A stretch of DNA of 64,000 nt from a virus, in the IMG/VR virus record IMGVR_UViG_3300029827_000001, positions 22,763 through 86,762 of that record; one strand, given 5' to 3'. The notes beneath the pieces were generated by a model. It worked only from the letters and a program-made list of their open reading frames with translations. It ran no database searches and had not been told where the DNA came from. A program made the position numbers and the translations under genes. Below are positions 43,982 to 52,592 of this stretch, piece after piece. Within the stretch, counting starts at the first letter, position 1. Each line of letters starts with the position of its first letter.

Positions 43982-44452
43982 ATGGCTGGAGATGAGATTA
44001 TCATTGCTCCTCATTATGACGACGAGATAATTGGATGTTTTGAAATTCTAGAAAGAAGACCTATAGTGGTTTATACTGATCCTCATGATCCGAGAAGAGC
44101 AGAATCTGAAAAACTATTTAAAGAACATAGATTAGTTAAAGCACAATATTTCTCATTTAACCTCCCACCAAATCTGTTAGATCCAAATAATACTTACTAT
44201 TTTCCAGATCCAATTTATGAATTCCACCCATCTCATAGGAAGTGGGGAGCAGTTGGAGAAAGTATGCTTCGGAGTGGTTTTGATATTATCTTTTATTCTA
44301 TCCAGATGAATGCTCCTTATATTCATGAAGTTGAAAATTCTATAGAGAAGTGGAAATTACTAGATTTAGTTTATCCAAGTCAAAAGAGTTTATGGGATCA
44401 TGATAAGAAATACTATCTTTTTGAAGGAAGATGCAAATGGCTAATGAAATAA
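43982..44452 (+). CDS. PIG-L/LmbE-family deacetylase-like protein
   Basis: IIIAPHYDDEIIG, RRAE, HPSH. Confidence 0.75.
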   Translation: MAGDEIIIAPHYDDEIIGCFEILERRPIVVYTDPHDPRRAESEKLFKEHRLVKAQYFSFNLPPNLLDPNNTYYFPDPIYEFHPSHRKWGAVGESMLRSGFDIIFYSIQMNAPYIHEVENSIEKWKLLDLVYPSQKSLWDHDKKYYLFEGRCKWLMK

Positions 44453-44907
44453 AGAGACCTGATTGGAATGCTTATTTTATGAAAATGGCCCACCTAGCAA
44501 AGAGTCGTTCAACTTGACTAAGGAGAAAAGTTGGAGCGGTTCTAGTTAAGGACCGTCAAGTAATAGCAACTGGTTATAATGGAGCACCAACTGGGCAGAA
44601 ACATTGTTTAGATATAGGATGTCTAAGAGAAGAACTAAATATTCCATCAGGCGAAAAACATGAGTTGTGCAGAGCAGTACATGCTGAGCAGAACCTCATA
44701 GCTCAAGCTGCTAAACGAGGTATATCGAGCGAAGGGGCGACTGTCTATTGTACAACTTTTCCATGTTTTATATGCGCTAAACTTCTAATAAACTCAGGTA
44801 TATCTGAGATATACTATGAAGAATACTATAATGCCCCCGAGACAAAAGAGATGCTTGAAGAAGCAAAAGTCAAACTGATTCACTGGAAAGGAGAAAGTTG
44901 TGAGTAG
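44437..44907 (+). CDS. dCMP deaminase with in-frame TGA at codon 27 (candidate selenocysteine)
   Basis: [50 protein letters not shown]...CRAVHAEQN...[14 protein letters not shown]; ORF track shows only the last 80 aa. Confidence 0.9.
44531..44559 (+). promoter_or_regulatory. candidate bacterial SECIS hairpin
   Basis: UUG-(GA bulge)-GCGGUUCU-[AGUUA loop]-AGGACCGU-CAA starting 13 nt after the UGA; paired by eye. Confidence 0.5.
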
Positions 44908-45844
44908 GTTATTTTTTGTTCCACAGCTGCCAGTGAAGATGAGATACCAAGAGTGGTGGTTTTCTCAAATACCAGAAGGACTATCAAAGTATTTTGACGA
45001 AATAATCATAATAGGTAAAGATTGTGTATCGGAACAGAAGTCAAGTCAAGAAGATTTTTCAAATATTGAAAAAGCAATTACTTTTGAGAGTGATCAAGTA
45101 AAAGAGTTTCTAAACTATGATATAAAAGACGATGATTTTCTTCTTCATGCTGATATAAGTTTTCCCGGAATCTTTCATAGTGTTCTTCACCATAGAAGAA
45201 TCAAGAATGCTTTTGCTTTCTGTCATGCAACTTCATTAAATGATTATGACTATTTTGTTCCTGTAAGGGCTAGCAAATGGGCTATTGAGTGTGGTCACAG
45301 TCTTCTGTATAAGAAAGTATTTGTTGCTAGTGATTATCATAAAAGAAAAATTCACTGGAATCATGCGGTAAATTTGGGAGCATTACCAAACCCTCCATTT
45401 AAGGGTCAAAAGTCTGAGAAGGAGTATCATATAATATCAGTTGCTCGAGATTCTGTTCAGAAAAGAACTAAAAGGTTAGAGAATGCAGCAATTGAAAAAT
45501 ATGGAGAAATTGTTGATGCCCCTCCATTTCAAGATTGGAGTGATTATTATGAGTTTATAAGTAAGGCAGAGTGCATGCTAATTACTTCAAAAGAAGAATG
45601 TTATGGATACCAGGTCATTGATGCAGTAATAAATAATTGTATACCAATTGCTCCTAGAAACTTCTCATATCCAGAATTGTTGCCCGATGAGTATCTATAT
45701 AGGGGACAATATGAGATGCTTGAACTATTAAGGTGGACTGATGGGAAAGGAGTAAGAGGACTAAAAACTCCAAAGTTACTCAATCAAGAAAAGATTGATA
45801 ACTTTTATGAGAACTTAGCAATGGAGATGAAAAATGCCGTTTAA
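44900..45844 (+). CDS. GT-B glycosyltransferase (GT4-like)
   Basis: ISVAR...[34 protein letters not shown]. Confidence 0.75.
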
Positions 45845-46370: not shown

Positions 46371-46994
46371 CTACGTTTCCGTCAGTTTTTTGGCAATGTC
46401 TTTTGATAAGACTGGAGTTGAAACTGATAGCGGTTTTCGTCCTATTCCTTTGCATTTCTTACACATAACAATTTCTTTTATTTTTCCAGTATTTACTGGT
46501 TTTGATTTACTGCCGCTTCCTCCACAATTTTTACACTTTATTGGTTGACGTCTTTTTGAAGTTCTCCTGTATTCATATATACCTTTTCCTTTACAAGTTT
46601 GACAAGTCTTCTGACCAACATTTCCTTTGCCTTTACACCGCTTACATATACTTCTCGCGATGCCAGTACCGTCACAAACTTTGCATGGAAGAACTAAGAC
46701 ATCATAAAAAAATTCTGGTTTAAAACCTTTGCCCCTGCAATTTGGACAGGCATTAGGTATTGGAAGCTTGATGTAATATCGAGACCTTTCAGATAACTGG
46801 TCTTCGATTATTGCAGCTAGCAAAGTATTCTTTGCTGCTATTACCTTCTCTGTCCCGCTCTTATCTCCCCCTAACTCGGCAAGTAAATCAATAAAAGAAT
46901 TGACTATAGTTTTCTCACTAACATCATCTTGGTTTAGATCCAAAATTCTGATTGAGTCATCAATCATATCCTGATCTATACATGATTTAGTCAT
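46371..46994 (-). CDS. DnaJ-like Zn-finger protein with degenerate J-like N-terminus
   Basis: Six CxxCxGxG repeats; helical N-terminus without HPD. Confidence 0.7.
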   Translation of the reverse strand: MTKSCIDQDMIDDSIRILDLNQDDVSEKTIVNSFIDLLAELGGDKSGTEKVIAAKNTLLAAIIEDQLSERSRYYIKLPIPNACPNCRGKGFKPEFFYDVLVLPCKVCDGTGIARSICKRCKGKGNVGQKTCQTCKGKGIYEYRRTSKRRQPIKCKNCGGSGSKSKPVNTGKIKEIVMCKKCKGIGRKPLSVSTPVLSKDIAKKLTET

Positions 46995-47177: not shown

Positions 47178-50100
47178 ATGTTTAGTATTAAGAGTTCATT
47201 TGCTGATTGTATGACCTGTCCTCTCCTCAGTGCTCCTTCATGCATACTCGAAACAAACTCTCCCAAAAACCTGAAAGATGTAGAAGTTATATTTCTGTCA
47301 GAAAATCCGGGTAAAAATGAAGTTGAAAAAGAAAAACCTCTGATAGGTAGATCAGGTCAAACATTTAGAAAACCATTTAACTTATATATTAGAGATAAGT
47401 TTAAATGGTTATTGACAAACTGTGTTCTGTGTTGTACGATACTTCCCGACGGAAAGACTGGTAATCCAACTCCGGATATAATCAATAGATGTAAGGAAAA
47501 TGCTTTTAAAATAATCGAAGCATGTAATCCTAAGTTAGTAGTAGCTATGGGTGCATCACCAATGATGGCATTTGGTTTTGCTAAAAGTGGAATAACAGAT
47601 TTGAGAGGACAAGTCTTTAAATGGAACGGTTATGATGTTCTTTTAACAGTTCATCCCTCATTTGTAAATAGAAATCAAACTTATAAAGATAAGTTCGAAA
47701 GAGATATTCAAACTGCAGCAGTAATGCTTGGAGCAAAACTTGAAGTAAAACCAGAGAAAACAATAAAGTCTCTAGGAAAAGGAAAATTTCGTTATAAAAT
47801 TCCAGATAAGTTTTATGAACCAGACTATCGACTTATTGATGTTCAGTTTTTAAATAGAACTAGTGAAGTTTTATATATTTTTAGAGATAAAGATAACAAA
47901 AAAGTTTATCATAAGATGAATGATGATTACTATTGCTACCAAGCTCCAGAAGGAATTGAGAATAGGCATTTAGTTAAATATGAGAATTTAGATTTAATAA
48001 AAGTTCCTTATAGACAAAAAGCAAAGTTAGATCCAGAAAGAACATATGAAGGTGATACGAGAATATCAGTAAAGCATGCTCAAGACTATTATCACTTTAA
48101 TAAAGGAGAACCAGAAACCCGACTCAATATTATGTATTTAGATATTGAGACATATAGCGAGACAAAGGAATTTCCAAATGTTGAAGATGCAAAACATGCT
48201 GTATGTGTTATAACTTATTCTTATCATGGTAAATTTATAACGTATGCAGTTGACAATAAAATTCTTCTAAATAATCCAAATGCTTCAGATATTATAACTA
48301 CAAAGGATGATCCAATCCATATTTTTAAATCTGAATATGATATGCTAATTAAGTTTATAAAAGATTTCAGAACTTTAGAACCAGATTTTGTTGTGGGATG
48401 GAATGTAATAGGATTTGACCTTTATTATATTCATAATAGATGTAAGAGGTTAAGAATAAAGTCTGAATCTATGTCAAAGTTTGGAGAAATATCTTTTTCA
48501 ATTGACGAAAAAAGAACATATTGTGAAATTGCTGGAACTGTTGTTCTTGATCTTCTTAAATTATATAGAAGTTTTACGTTCACACAAAAAGAGAATTATA
48601 GACTTGGTACAATTGCCAAAGAAGAATTAGGAGAAGAGAAAACTGATGTTGGAGAGAATTTCTCTGAGAAATACGAGAAAGATATTAATGGAGCAATTGA
48701 GTATAATATAAAAGACGTTGATTTAATCATAGGTATAGAAAATAAACTAAAACTTATAGTTCTAGAAAATGAGATCAGAAAAATTGGTAGCTCAAGTTTC
48801 TCAGGAGCTTTCAGTAATTTAGGGAAACTAGATAGTCTGGTTATATCATTTCTAAAAGATAAAGGATTAGCATCAAGAAATGCTAATGTCTACAAAGTAA
48901 AAGAACAATCAATTCCGGGAGCTTTTGTCAAAGAACCTCGCATCGGAATTCATGAGCATATAGTTGATTTTGACTTTACATCTCTGTATCCCAGTTTAAT
49001 TTTAACTTATAATATTGGAATAAATACTTTTGCGATGAAATTTAAAGATCATACTTTGGGGTATGACTATGTATATCAACCAGACAATCTTCCCAATGAA
49101 TTTGAAATAATATATGATCCAGCATTTCTGAACAAAGAGATGAAAGTTACAAAGGATCAATTTTTTAAGAAGGTAAAAGAAGGAAATCTTATTTATACAA
49201 TAAATGGTTGTTTCTATAAACCTCATGATAAAGAAGTATCAATTTATTCAGAAGTTCTTGACCATTTGCTAAGTTCAAGAAAAGAGTATAAAACCAAGAT
49301 GTTTGAAGCTAAGCAAGCAGGAAATGAAAATTTACAAGATATGTATCATGGTCGTCAGTTAGTTTACAAAGTTCTTGCAAATGCTCTATATGGTATTCTT
49401 ACAAACCACTTCTTTAGATTCTATCATGATGATCTTGGTAGTAGTATTACTCTAAGTGGTCAGGAAGCATTAAAAACTTCAATTCTTTCAGCAAACAATT
49501 ATGTTAAGAAGCTAAAGGAGTTAACTAAGTATGAAGATCCAGATCCTCTAACGAAGCAAGAAATGTACGGTGACCTATCTAGAGATACTAATTTTATTAT
49601 TACCGGAGATACTGATAGTTTATTTATCACGTTTGGAGAACTAGTAAATAAGAATAAACCAGAAGAAGAAACAATGGGTAAGATTGTAAAGTGGTGTAAT
49701 GAAATTCAAATATTTTTGAATGATAAGATAATTGCTCCATTAGTTAATTTACATAATGTCCCGCCTTCAAAAAATCGTCTCGAGTTGAAGAATGAATTAG
49801 TAATTAAGAGAGGACTATTCTTAGCAAAAAAGAGATACGCAATCTATGTGACTTCTCAAGAAGGAAGAGAGACAAGAGAAATTGTAAACATGGGAATTGA
49901 AACAAAAAGAAGTGATTATCCAAGTTATACAAAAGAAAGTTTAAATGAGCTATTAGATAAGATTTTGAAAGAGGAAGAAGCAAGTCCAGCAAAGATTTTC
50001 AAATTTGTTGACCTTAGAGAAAGAGTCTTTCTACAAAAGATAAAAGCTGGAGATAAATCAGTTGCAAGACCATCCTCATTCACGAAGAAATTAGAGAATT

Positions 50101-50435
50101 ACAAGCGAGTACCTCCTGGTGTGATCTCAATGTTGAATTGGAACGAACTCGAGTATAATATCTTTAATACGGGTTCAAAAGGCTATCTCTTTAAGTTATC
50201 TGGTATTGACCTTATGACAGCACCTGAAGATGTGAGGAAGAGATTTGAGGAGAAATTTCTAGCAAATGGGAGAAAGTTAGAATCCATATCTCTCCCAGAT
50301 GAGGAGGTATCTTTGCCCCCATATTATGTAGTTGACGCTCGGGCAATGCTTAAGTTTGCGTGGACCGATAGATCTGACTTATTATTGAATCCAATAATGA
50401 AGAGGTTAGAAAAACGAACCACTGATACTATTTAG
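47178..50435 (+). CDS. polB: family B DNA polymerase with N-terminal family-4 uracil-DNA glycosylase-like domain
   Basis: UDG: CMTCPL, FLSENPG..E, PLIGRSG, TNCVLC, TVHPS. Exo: LDIET, GWNVIGFD, YNIKD. Pol: DFTSLYPS, KVLANALYG, TGDTDS, KKRY. Confidence 0.95.
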   Translation: MFSIKSSFADCMTCPLLSAPSCILETNSPKNLKDVEVIFLSENPGKNEVEKEKPLIGRSGQTFRKPFNLYIRDKFKWLLTNCVLCCTILPDGKTGNPTPDIINRCKENAFKIIEACNPKLVVAMGASPMMAFGFAKSGITDLRGQVFKWNGYDVLLTVHPSFVNRNQTYKDKFERDIQTAAVMLGAKLEVKPEKTIKSLGKGKFRYKIPDKFYEPDYRLIDVQFLNRTSEVLYIFRDKDNKKVYHKMNDDYYCYQAPEGIENRHLVKYENLDLIKVPYRQKAKLDPERTYEGDTRISVKHAQDYYHFNKGEPETRLNIMYLDIETYSETKEFPNVEDAKHAVCVITYSYHGKFITYAVDNKILLNNPNASDIITTKDDPIHIFKSEYDMLIKFIKDFRTLEPDFVVGWNVIGFDLYYIHNRCKRLRIKSESMSKFGEISFSIDEKRTYCEIAGTVVLDLLKLYRSFTFTQKENYRLGTIAKEELGEEKTDVGENFSEKYEKDINGAIEYNIKDVDLIIGIENKLKLIVLENEIRKIGSSSFSGAFSNLGKLDSLVISFLKDKGLASRNANVYKVKEQSIPGAFVKEPRIGIHEHIVDFDFTSLYPSLILTYNIGINTFAMKFKDHTLGYDYVYQPDNLPNEFEIIYDPAFLNKEMKVTKDQFFKKVKEGNLIYTINGCFYKPHDKEVSIYSEVLDHLLSSRKEYKTKMFEAKQAGNENLQDMYHGRQLVYKVLANALYGILTNHFFRFYHDDLGSSITLSGQEALKTSILSANNYVKKLKELTKYEDPDPLTKQEMYGDLSRDTNFIITGDTDSLFITFGELVNKNKPEEETMGKIVKWCNEIQIFLNDKIIAPLVNLHNVPPSKNRLELKNELVIKRGLFLAKKRYAIYVTSQEGRETREIVNMGIETKRSDYPSYTKESLNELLDKILKEEEASPAKIFKFVDLRERVFLQKIKAGDKSVARPSSFTKKLENYKRVPPGVISMLNWNELEYNIFNTGSKGYLFKLSGIDLMTAPEDVRKRFEEKFLANGRKLESISLPDEEVSLPPYYVVDARAMLKFAWTDRSDLLLNPIMKRLEKRTTDTI

Positions 50436-52044: not shown

Positions 52045-52592
52045 TGTTTGAGAAAGTAAAGAGAAAGATTAAGGAAATAAAGACAAACCTTAGTTCTGGG
52101 TTATCAGGCAATCAATTTCCACCACATAGTCATTCATTACTATCAGGTAATGCGTATACAAGTACAAATCAAGGGCATACTCATACTATACCTGGTCATA
52201 GTCATACTCAAAGTACGGCATGGCCTTATGACCCATCTACTGGACCTCTTGAAGAACCCTTTGAGTGGTTTCATAAAGTATTCTGTCCGTGTGGAAGTAT
52301 TGATTGGGTAGAGGTTGCAAAAGTTTATGCTTGGAGTCATATTAAAAATGCGAATATAACTAGGAAGTTAGCAATATGCCGAGAATGTGAAAAAGTTACA
52401 GTTATTGATGATTTTGAGATTAGTGAACAGCGGCCTCCTATTGAGGCAGACGACAAGTTTGATTTCTTTGAGAAACTTAAAGATTTAAGAATTGATTTTG
52501 AAACCAACAATTATCCCAGAAGTACAACAACATATACTACTAGTACAACCTCAACGACAAGCACAACATTCCCTCCAAGGAGATATAGATGA
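52044..52592 (+). CDS. hypothetical protein with HxH repeats and Zn ribbon
   Basis: HSHS, GHTHT, GHSHT; CPCG...CREC; Thr-rich tail. Confidence 0.6.
   Translation: MFEKVKRKIKEIKTNLSSGLSGNQFPPHSHSLLSGNAYTSTNQGHTHTIPGHSHTQSTAWPYDPSTGPLEEPFEWFHKVFCPCGSIDWVEVAKVYAWSHIKNANITRKLAICRECEKVTVIDDFEISEQRPPIEADDKFDFFEKLKDLRIDFETNNYPRSTTTYTTSTTSTTSTTFPPRRYR

What the first reader, a model, noticed from the sequence alone, without database searches (positions are those of the whole stretch)
44437..44907. Candidate phage-encoded selenoprotein: dCMP deaminase with UGA at a conserved Cys plus a SECIS-like hairpin
Seen: one intact frame from ATG 44437 (RBS GAAGGAAG) to 44907, broken only by TGA at 44515-44517 and reading ...[13 protein letters not shown]...; both halves are well conserved and the Zn ligands (HAE, PCxxC) are intact. 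Known: dCMP deaminases have RSTC[LI]RR.VGAV here, so the stop replaces exactly the Cys, the classic Sec/Cys signature. Seen: a stem-loop (44531-44559; 8-bp upper stem, GA bulge, AGUUA loop with G second) begins 13 nt after the UGA, fitting bacterial SECIS geometry. TGA is an ordinary stop elsewhere (many ATGA overlaps), so this is not genome-wide recoding. Inference: the phage uses host SelB/tRNA-Sec, tying dUMP/dTTP supply (ThyA at 52589) to selenium availability. The viral selenoproteins I know of are poxvirus glutathione peroxidases, so a phage case would be unusual.
Basis: partly seen in the sequence, partly recalled or inferred. Interest (0 to 1): 0.88.

Follow-up and report, generated by a model that had tools for sequence, protein, structure and literature searches.

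The report
Likely selenocysteine codon in phage deaminase
A giant marine-sediment phage and its relatives keep a UGA "stop" exactly where their dCMP deaminase needs a cysteine and still translate past it, so the codon is most likely read as selenocysteine, which I found described for no virus of bacteria.

Summary
One dCMP deaminase frame (44437-44907) is broken only by TGA 44515-44517, and HAE, PCxxC and GYNG are intact.

It is not an error. Contigs from four runs of one marine-sediment study carry it unchanged. Three IMG/VR contigs of a 277-kb relative (about 74% genome identity) have TGA at the same codon.

It is not a pseudogene. Omega is 0.03 downstream of the TGA at dS about 1.

Every full-length homologue examined has Cys there: 80 of 80 loci and 119 of 119 proteins.

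Fifteen further variants, all called from the same internal codon, form one clade with the two TGA lineages, support 100/98.

The hairpin 18 nt after the UGA is more stable than about 99% of synonymous recodings in both lineages. Cruder structure measures are unremarkable.

No other gene is interrupted. The phage has no sel genes or tRNA-Sec. The host is unknown.

Best reading is selenocysteine through the host's machinery, at about 0.55. Near-cognate read-through is the main rival.

This scan has flagged similar phage candidates on other DNA.

The parts
44423..44430 (+). Shine-Dalgarno-like GAAGGAAG, 6 nt before the start codon
   Evidence: Read. Identical in the relative L002-L004.
44437..44907 (+). 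dCMP deaminase gene (ComEB/T4 cd type), 156 codons plus TAG, with one internal UGA
   Evidence: Translation. PF00383 92.2 bits. Best PDB relatives are 2hvv, 1vq2 and 4p9c. Omega is 0.054 against L002.
44515..44517 (+). In-frame TGA (codon 27) at the position of an invariant Cys, in the context UGA-C
   Evidence: The same codon is TGA in L002-L004. It is Cys in 80 of 80 metagenome loci and 119 of 119 full-length proteins. Contigs of four runs show zero differences.
44508..44535 (+). Helix of 8 bp (44508-44515 / 44528-44535) whose 12-nt loop holds the GA of UGA and an AAGGAG
   Evidence: Predicted. It lies within a 10-codon run with no substitution between the two lineages. The chance of such a run covering this codon is 0.025. 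No covariation is possible because it is invariant.
44531..44559 (+). SECIS-like hairpin: 8-bp stem 44536-44543/44549-44556, loop AGUUA, lower 3 bp across a GA bulge
   Evidence: MFE is -10.3 kcal/mol in the window. It is -9.4 in L002, where the stem re-forms with a one-base bulge after four synonymous changes. Only 0.5% and 1.1% of 5000 synonymous recodings fold as well.
44537..44572 (+). Alternative 'far' helix 44537-44544 / 44564-44572, mutually exclusive with the hairpin above
   Evidence: RNAalifold consensus with 2 pairs changed on both sides and none broken. Of 551 control windows of the same two genomes, 13 do as well.
44680..44688 (+). HAE: catalytic zinc ligand and proton-shuttle Glu
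   Evidence: Conserved in all 15 truncated clade members listed.
44761..44775 (+). PCFIC: the two Cys ligands of the catalytic zinc
   Evidence: Conserved in all 15 truncated clade members listed.

Best explanation
The gene encodes a full-length dCMP deaminase whose codon 27 (UGA) is decoded and does not terminate translation. The most likely mechanism is bacterial-type selenocysteine insertion. The host's SelB with Sec-tRNA(Sec) would be recruited by the hairpin that starts 18 nt after the UGA, and would outcompete RF2 at a weak UGA-C stop. That would put Sec where all relatives have Cys. Shown: the UGA is real, conserved and under coding selection on both sides; it replaces an invariant Cys; it arose once in a clade that has since diversified; the hairpin is maintained. 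Inferred: the inserted residue is Sec; the host has the Sec machinery; the Cys it replaces is a ligand of the second zinc (recalled, not tested).
For: The TGA is real. Contigs of 4 runs (one study, depth 12-35) match with 0 differences.

The same codon is TGA in L002, L003 and L004, which come from three other metagenomes. Their genome is collinear with the window's at 74.3% identity over 74,448 aligned bases.

Between the two lineages dS is 0.97 and dN 0.05. Omega is 0.032 over the 130 codons after the TGA and 0.25 over the 25 codons before it. Codons 28-41 carry 4 synonymous and 0 non-synonymous changes and hold no in-frame ATG, GTG or TTG.

The aligned residue is Cys in 80 of 80 metagenome loci, TGT 41 and TGC 39. 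It is Cys in 119 of 119 full-length protein hits and in PDB 2hvv, 1vq2 and 4p9c.

A 26-member protein cluster (84% identity) consists of 115-aa calls. All 15 listed start at the same internal Val codon. Window, L002 and these 15 form one clade with 100/98 support, nested among Cys forms. No full-length protein above 71% identity appeared among the 120 best hits, so no Cys revertant of the clade was seen.

The hairpin is -10.3 and -9.4 kcal/mol in the two lineages, against a median of -3.8 for synonymous recodings. The fraction of recodings as stable is 0.5% and 1.1%.

A 10-codon invariant run spans the UGA, p 0.025.

This is the only interrupted gene found in 86.8 kb and in the 277-kb relative.

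All 12 organism-named hits among the 120 best are sulfate-reducer lineages (Dissulfurimicrobium, Desulfonauticus, Desulfofervidus, Desulfobacteria/-ales, Thermodesulfobacteriota). From recall, that group uses Sec heavily.
Against: The host is unknown, so the Sec machinery could not be checked.

The phage records carry no selA, selB or selD (0 of 4 records each). None has a tRNA-Sec over the Rfam cut-off (0 of 4).

A motif scan of one genome for each of 185,579 prokaryote species found no cellular dCMP deaminase with TGA at this site. It gave 3 matches, all chance.

No Rfam family matches the region at E up to 10.

Folding z-scores of the 70-nt stretch rank only 13th and 16th of 85 against Cys homologues.

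With gene-own codon weights the hairpin percentiles are 1.6% and 4.3%, and 3 of 83 Cys homologues also reach 5% or less.

DNA is available for only two independent TGA lineages, so covariation is thin.

The replaced Cys is, from recall, a structural zinc ligand and not a redox residue.

The interruption in the 15 truncated proteins is inferred from their length. Their DNA was not seen.
Confidence: 0.55

Rival explanations
1. Programmed or tolerated near-cognate read-through. RF2 terminates poorly at UGA-C, and tRNA-Cys(GCA) or tRNA-Trp(CCA) occasionally reads the codon. Local RNA structure and the phage's own copies of these two tRNAs may help. The result would be a low, set level of full-length enzyme.
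For: The context is UGA-C. From recall this is the weakest RF2 signal in E. coli. The complete relative encodes only four tRNAs, and two are exactly the near-cognates, adjacent Cys-GCA and Trp-CCA. No cellular Sec form of this enzyme was found. The Cys is probably structural, where Sec brings no obvious gain. Sequence around the UGA is invariant, as expected for a read-through context.
Against: The residue is invariant Cys in 80 of 80 loci and 119 of 119 proteins. Trp, the usual read-through product, should therefore be harmful, and Cys insertion by a G:A wobble mismatch is rare (recalled). A single A-to-T or A-to-C change would restore Cys, yet no full-length clade member was found. The phage tRNA-Trp has a normal C11-G24 pair and no visible suppressor feature. 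A stable hairpin at SECIS-like spacing is maintained. I know of no structure-stimulated read-through in bacteria (recall).
Confidence: 0.22
2. A phage-borne decoder reads the UGA. The relatives carry a 104-nt tRNA-like RNA with tRNA-Sec hallmarks that could act as a suppressor.
For: G002:80243-80346 (minus strand) has an 8-bp acceptor stem, a 5-bp T arm with UUCGACU, a variable arm, and G at the discriminator position. Its best Rfam match is tRNA-Sec at 29.8 bits. A copy in another phage contig (L071) keeps these arms through compensatory changes. Its 7-nt loop has UCA, the complement of UGA, in the centre.
Against: In G002 and G003, the lineage that has the TGA, the loop is UAUUAUU with centre UUA, which does not pair with UGA. 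The score is below the tRNA-Sec cut-off of 47 bits. There is no D arm, the 'anticodon' stem is 8-9 bp, and position 33 is A. ARAGORN calls it only with forced settings, as something else. The window's own record is a fragment without this region.
Confidence: 0.05
3. The enzyme is made in two pieces, or only as a C-terminal piece. Translation stops at the UGA and restarts just downstream, helped by the AAGGAG exposed in the loop of the first helix.
For: AAGGAG lies 3 nt after the UGA. Gene callers start the relatives' proteins at an internal Val codon.
Against: No in-frame ATG, GTG or TTG exists between the UGA and codon 77 in the window; the first is TTG at 44665. Codon 42 is GTA in the window and in L002. 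The nearby TTG is out of frame and runs into TAG after four codons. Codons 28-41 are under coding constraint. A protein without helix 1 and strand 1 would lack the core of the fold (inference from alignments to solved structures).
Confidence: 0.03
4. The gene is inactivated: a nonsense mutation in a dispensable gene.
For: A premature stop at codon 27 is what a knock-out looks like. Phage nucleotide-metabolism genes are often dispensable.
Against: Omega is 0.032 downstream at dS about 1. There is no second stop or frameshift in either lineage. The catalytic motifs are intact in 15 of 15 further clade variants.
Confidence: 0.03

Closest known systems
Bacterial selenoprotein genes with an in-ORF SECIS read by SelB (prototype E. 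coli fdhF; bSECISearch consensus, recalled)
   Same: There is an in-frame UGA aligned with Cys in homologues, and coding continues after it. A hairpin lies immediately downstream. Its loop starts 26 nt after the UGA, the loop has 5 nt with G second, and the stem has 8 bp (with a bulged base in the relative). The context is UGA-C, as I recall for fdhF.
   Different: The gene sits in a virus that carries none of the Sec machinery. The protein family is not a known selenoprotein family in anything I could search. The residue is probably a zinc ligand and not a redox centre. No SelB binding or selenium incorporation has been shown.
ComEB / T4 cd-type dCMP deaminases with solved structures (2hvv/2hvw S. 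mutans, 1vq2 T4, 4p9c cyanophage S-TIM5)
   Same: The fold family is the same, with HAE, PCxxC and the GYNG allosteric motif. The aligned residue is Cys in all three. T4 enzyme binds two zinc atoms per subunit (title of Moore et al. 1993, seen in the reference list of PMC7029224). A secondary zinc sits at loop 3 in dCMP deaminases (passages of PMC4683357).
   Different: Here the codon for that Cys is UGA.
Poxvirus glutathione peroxidase selenoproteins (molluscum contagiosum, fowlpox; recalled)
   Same: They are virus-encoded selenoproteins that depend on host Sec machinery.
   Different: They belong to eukaryotic viruses, have a 3'-UTR SECIS of the eukaryotic type, and are copies of a classic host selenoenzyme.
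Phage Q-beta A1 protein: UGA read-through by tRNA-Trp (recalled)
   Same: It is a phage gene that depends on decoding of a UGA.
   Different: There the UGA ends a complete protein, and a few per cent read-through adds an extension. Here the UGA is at codon 27, at an invariant Cys, and nothing functional precedes it.
Other candidate phage selenoproteins noted in this scan (e1-5362015, e1-5998498, e1-5778751, e1-6036874 and others; AI notes)
   Same: They show UGA at a Cys position with a downstream hairpin in uncultured phages, several from marine sediment.
   Different: They involve other protein families, mostly small proteins, with up to 130 lineages. Here the protein is a well-known enzyme and DNA exists for only two lineages.

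Membership tests
Bacterial-type selenoprotein gene | In-frame UGA kept at the same codon in orthologues | tested here: met
   TGA in the window and in L002-L004. Fifteen further clade variants are truncated at one common point, but their DNA was not seen.
Bacterial-type selenoprotein gene | Homologues with Cys aligned to the UGA | tested here: met
   80 of 80 loci, 119 of 119 proteins, and 3 PDB relatives.
Bacterial-type selenoprotein gene | Protein-coding conservation on both sides of the UGA | tested here: met
   Omega is 0.25 upstream (25 codons) and 0.032 downstream (130 codons), with dS 0.97 overall.
Bacterial-type selenoprotein gene | SECIS hairpin just downstream (recalled consensus: loop 16-37 nt after UGA, loop 3-14 nt with G in the first two positions, stem of 4 bp or more) | tested here: inconclusive
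   The geometry is met and stability is in the top 0.5-1.1% of synonymous recodings. There is no Rfam match. The z-score ranks only 13th and 16th of 85. Among Cys homologues, 3 of 83 reach a percentile of 5% or less. Only two lineages are available for covariation.
Bacterial-type selenoprotein gene | selA, selB, selC and selD in the organism that translates it | not testable with these tools
   The host is unknown. The phage records have none. Host kin cannot be drawn for a virus record.
Bacterial-type selenoprotein gene | Selenium in the protein | not testable with these tools
   This needs 75Se labelling or mass spectrometry.
dCMP deaminase (PF00383, ComEB/T4 cd type) | H(C)xE and PCxxC catalytic zinc motifs | tested here: met
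   HAE at 44680-44688 and PCFIC at 44761-44775. PF00383 scores 92.2 bits against a cut-off of 25.
dCMP deaminase (PF00383, ComEB/T4 cd type) | G(Y/W)N(A/G) allosteric-site motif that separates dCMP deaminases from other cytidine deaminases (PMC12088426, passages) | tested here: met
   ATGYNGAP at residues 44-51.
Genome-wide stop-codon reassignment (code 4 or 25, or recoded phage) | Many genes with in-frame TGA, and TGA not used as a stop | tested here: not met
   TGA ends 50 of 189 ORFs. One interrupted gene was found in 133 and in 389 mapped ORFs.

The most novel reading that the evidence does not exclude
This jumbo-phage lineage may run a stop-codon decoding toolkit of its own. It would consist of a selenocysteine (or Cys) UGA in an essential zinc site of its dCMP deaminase, together with tRNA-Sec-shaped RNAs. 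These RNAs have an 8-bp acceptor, a 5-bp T arm, a variable arm and G73, and their 7-nt loops carry stop-codon complements (UCA in one relative, UUA in another). On this reading the phage, and not only the host, would decide how the stop is read.
Probability: 0.06. Interest if true: 0.92.

Novelty: new variant of a known kind. Interest (0 to 1): 0.72.

Why it matters
If the UGA is read as Sec, this would be a selenoprotein encoded by a virus of bacteria. It would also add dCMP deaminase to the selenoprotein families, with Sec in what is probably a zinc site and not a redox centre. My searches of the open literature found neither. The marine trace-element survey PMC9402790 says that the selenoprotein families it examined have few or no viral sequences (passages). 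It would make phage dTTP synthesis depend on the host's Sec machinery and selenium supply. It would also provide a host-range marker for an uncultured jumbo-phage clade. In practical terms, gene callers split or truncate this gene in every clade member found, so such genes are systematically missed.

Tried and rejected
Phage collection: blastn of 44300-45100 found nothing. tblastn of the polymerase found only relatives of 29% identity or less. There is therefore no cultured relative and no host from that route.

Expression: no RNA holder was listed among the sequencing runs.

Rfam: scanning 44400-44700 at E up to 10 gave only four chance-level hits and no SECIS family.

Host hints: the ThyA homologue search gave one organism name among the 120 listed, an archaeal MAG. 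The protein-atlas look-up of the radical-SAM gene gave mixed taxa. Neither helped.

Role of the Cys: paper searches for the second zinc site of dCMP deaminases and reading PMC12386326 did not name the ligands. PMC4281768 is not held. The ligand role therefore rests on recall. A co-occurrence count of this Cys with loop-3 Cys was inconclusive: 14 sequences, split 9, 4 and 1.

In-frame stop scan: a tblastn scan for conserved in-frame stops was too noisy, because non-coding frames also align at 74% identity. I replaced it with gene-map gap scans. Those scans only see breaks that leave a gap or a long start-less stretch, and the relative's own deaminase was filtered out by the overlap rule.

Frameshifting or hopping at the UGA is rejected, because only the zero frame stays open.

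ARAGORN at a relaxed threshold called a 65-nt tRNA-Gly and a tRNA with anticodon CTA in G002. I did not follow these up.

Supplementary files of papers were not used.

Full report
WHAT IS THERE. The window is bases 22763-86762 of an 86,762-base IMG/VR virus record that CheckV rates 28% complete. GC content is about 34%. At 44437-44907 on the plus strand lies one frame of 156 codons. It is preceded by GAAGGAAG, ends in TAG, and is broken only by TGA at 44515-44517. Read through, it is a dCMP deaminase. PF00383 scores 92.2 bits against a cut-off of 25. The best solved relatives are the S. mutans, T4 and cyanophage S-TIM5 enzymes. HAE, PCxxC and the GYNG allosteric motif are all intact.

THE TGA IS REAL AND OLD. 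Assemblies of four sequencing runs from one marine-sediment study, at depth 12-35, each contain a contig that covers 44300-45000 with zero differences. These may be the source samples. They rule out a consensus error but are not independent of the window. Independent support comes from IMG/VR: of 58 related loci, the three closest carry TGA at the same codon. Those three (L002-L004) are 90% identical to the window in protein, identical to each other over the gene, and come from three other metagenomes. One of them is a complete 277,131-base genome with terminal repeats. It is collinear with the window's record at 74.3% identity over 74,448 aligned bases. The two lineages are therefore well separated.

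THE GENE IS TRANSLATED PAST THE TGA. Between the two lineages dS is 0.97 and dN 0.05. Omega is 0.032 for the 130 codons after the TGA and 0.25 for the 25 codons before it. Codons 28-41 differ by four synonymous changes and no replacement. They contain no in-frame ATG, GTG or TTG, and the first one after the stop is TTG at 44665. A dead gene or a restart downstream does not fit these facts.

THE CODON STANDS FOR AN INVARIANT CYS. Among the 19 viral loci I translated, 3 have the stop, 10 have Cys, 4 have Ala and 2 have another residue. The non-Cys forms are the most distant ones. All 80 metagenome loci kept by the scan (54-66% identity) have Cys, TGT 41 and TGC 39. All 119 full-length proteins among the 120 best hits of the protein search have Cys. 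The three solved relatives have it too.

The one exception among the 120 is P0001, at 84% identity. It represents 26 sequences, and all 15 listed are 115 aa long and start at the same internal Val codon. That is what a gene caller produces when an upstream stop cuts the frame. In a maximum-likelihood tree of 59 rows, the window, L002 and these 15 form one clade with 100/98 support. The clade is nested among Cys forms. I left out P0041-P0120 and the viral loci other than L002, L005, L007 and L008 to keep the tree small. No full-length protein above 71% identity was listed, so I saw no member of the clade that has reverted to Cys. Their break is therefore inferred and not read.

RNA STRUCTURE: EVIDENCE FOR. 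In L002 four synonymous changes fall in its arms. The stem re-forms in a shifted register with one bulged base, at -9.4 kcal/mol, with the loop unchanged. I re-coded the same 11 residues 5000 times with the phage's codon usage. Only 0.5% of recodings fold as well as the window and 1.1% as well as L002, against a median of -3.8. The ten codons around the UGA carry no substitution at all. The chance of such a run covering this particular codon is 0.025, although a run that long somewhere in the gene has a chance of 0.29. RNAalifold prefers a different partner for the same 5' arm (44564-44572), with two pairs changed on both sides. Of 551 control windows from the same genome pair, 13 do as well.

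RNA STRUCTURE: EVIDENCE AGAINST. With weights taken from the gene's own codons the percentiles are 1.6% and 4.3%, and 3 of 83 Cys homologues also reach 5% or less. The shuffle z-score of the 70-nt stretch ranks 13th and 16th of 85. No Rfam family matches. My reading is that the hairpin is probably maintained by selection. Two lineages cannot prove it, and they cannot decide between the near and the far pairing.

WHO DECODES IT. The four phage records hold no selA, selB or selD (0 of 4 each) and no tRNA-Sec above the cut-off. The complete relative has four tRNAs: Pro-UGG, His-GUG and an adjacent pair, Cys-GCA and Trp-CCA. The last two are the near-cognates of UGA, and both look ordinary. TGA is a normal stop in this genome. 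The deaminase is the only interrupted gene that my gap scans found among 133 mapped ORFs here and 389 in the relative. Genome-wide recoding is therefore excluded.

The host is unknown. There is no cultured relative, and kin cannot be drawn for a virus record. The only hint is that all 12 organism-named proteins among the 120 best deaminase hits belong to sulfate-reducer lineages of Thermodesulfobacteriota or the former Deltaproteobacteria. From recall, that group has the richest bacterial selenoproteomes.

MECHANISM AND RIVALS. UGA at an invariant Cys, kept for a long time although one base change would restore Cys, with a maintained hairpin at the right distance, is the standard signature of Sec. 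I put this reading at 0.55.

The main rival (0.22) is near-cognate read-through at a weak UGA-C stop. It is favoured by three things: no cellular Sec form was found in a motif scan of 185,579 species (3 matches, all chance); the role of the Cys is probably structural; and the phage carries its own tRNA-Cys and tRNA-Trp. It is disfavoured because Trp should not be tolerated at this position and Cys misreading is rare.

A phage-borne decoder is a long shot (0.05). The relatives carry a 104-nt tRNA-Sec-shaped RNA, but in the TGA lineage the centre of its loop is UUA and not UCA. A split protein and a dead gene are each at about 0.03.

COMPARISON AND NOVELTY. In mechanism this would be an ordinary bacterial Sec gene. 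What is new is where it sits: in a phage, and in an enzyme family not known to use Sec. I found no paper that reports a selenoprotein of a bacteriophage. The searches were made, read as listings and abstracts only. Of the papers that name both selenocysteine and deoxycytidylate deaminase, I read passages only of PMC7029224, where both terms stand only in the reference list; the other two I saw as listing and abstract. PMC9402790 states that the selenoprotein families it examined have few or no viral sequences in the GOS data (passages). Notes from this scan report similar candidates in other phages, several from marine sediment. They raised my prior a little, but they are unchecked AI notes and I tested none of them.

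LIMITS. DNA is available for two lineages only. There is no host, no expression data and no protein data. The zinc-ligand role of the Cys is recalled. The only backing from calls is the two-zinc title for the T4 enzyme, the loop-3 secondary zinc described in PMC4683357, and the presence of the Cys in the solved bacterial and phage enzymes. The consensus values quoted for bacterial SECIS elements are recalled as well.

Noticed in passing
G002:C1:80243-80346 (minus strand; L068:14244-14347), G003:C1:27312-27415, L071:7428-7532: A 104-nt tRNA-like RNA with an 8-bp acceptor stem, a 5-bp T arm (UUCGACU loop), a variable arm kept by compensatory changes, and G at the discriminator position. It has no D arm and an 8-9-bp 'anticodon' stem. 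Its best Rfam match is tRNA-Sec at 29.8 bits (cut-off 47). The centres of the 7-nt loops are UUA (G002/G003) and UCA (L071), both complements of stop codons.
   Followed up: partly
G002:C1:78662-78817 (minus strand): The complete relative encodes only four tRNAs. Two of them, adjacent and 4 nt apart, are Cys-GCA and Trp-CCA, the two near-cognates of UGA. Both look canonical (U73 and G73, with CCA encoded).
   Followed up: partly
window 47178-50435 (+): The family-B DNA polymerase (1085 aa) carries an N-terminal uracil-DNA-glycosylase-superfamily domain (PF03167, residues 34-173) fused to the exonuclease and polymerase domains. Cultured phages match it at 29% identity or less, and only from about residue 220 onward.
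   Followed up: no
window 43982-44452 (+) and 44900-45844 (+): The two genes that overlap the deaminase at either end have no Pfam match at E of 0.001 or less. The PIG-L deacetylase and glycosyltransferase labels in another note on this window are not supported by that test.
   Followed up: partly
window 46371-46994 (-): A 207-aa protein on the opposite strand carries a DnaJ-type CxxCxGxG zinc-finger domain (PF00684, 40.7 bits) without a J domain.
   Followed up: no
G002:C1:255265-255337 (minus strand): At a relaxed ARAGORN threshold a 73-nt tRNA with anticodon CTA (complement of TAG) is called. It is not found at default settings.
   Followed up: no
window 44431-44439 versus L002:2992-3000: The window has two in-frame ATGs six bases apart. 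In the relative the first is followed directly by TAA, so only the second can be the shared start.
   Followed up: yes
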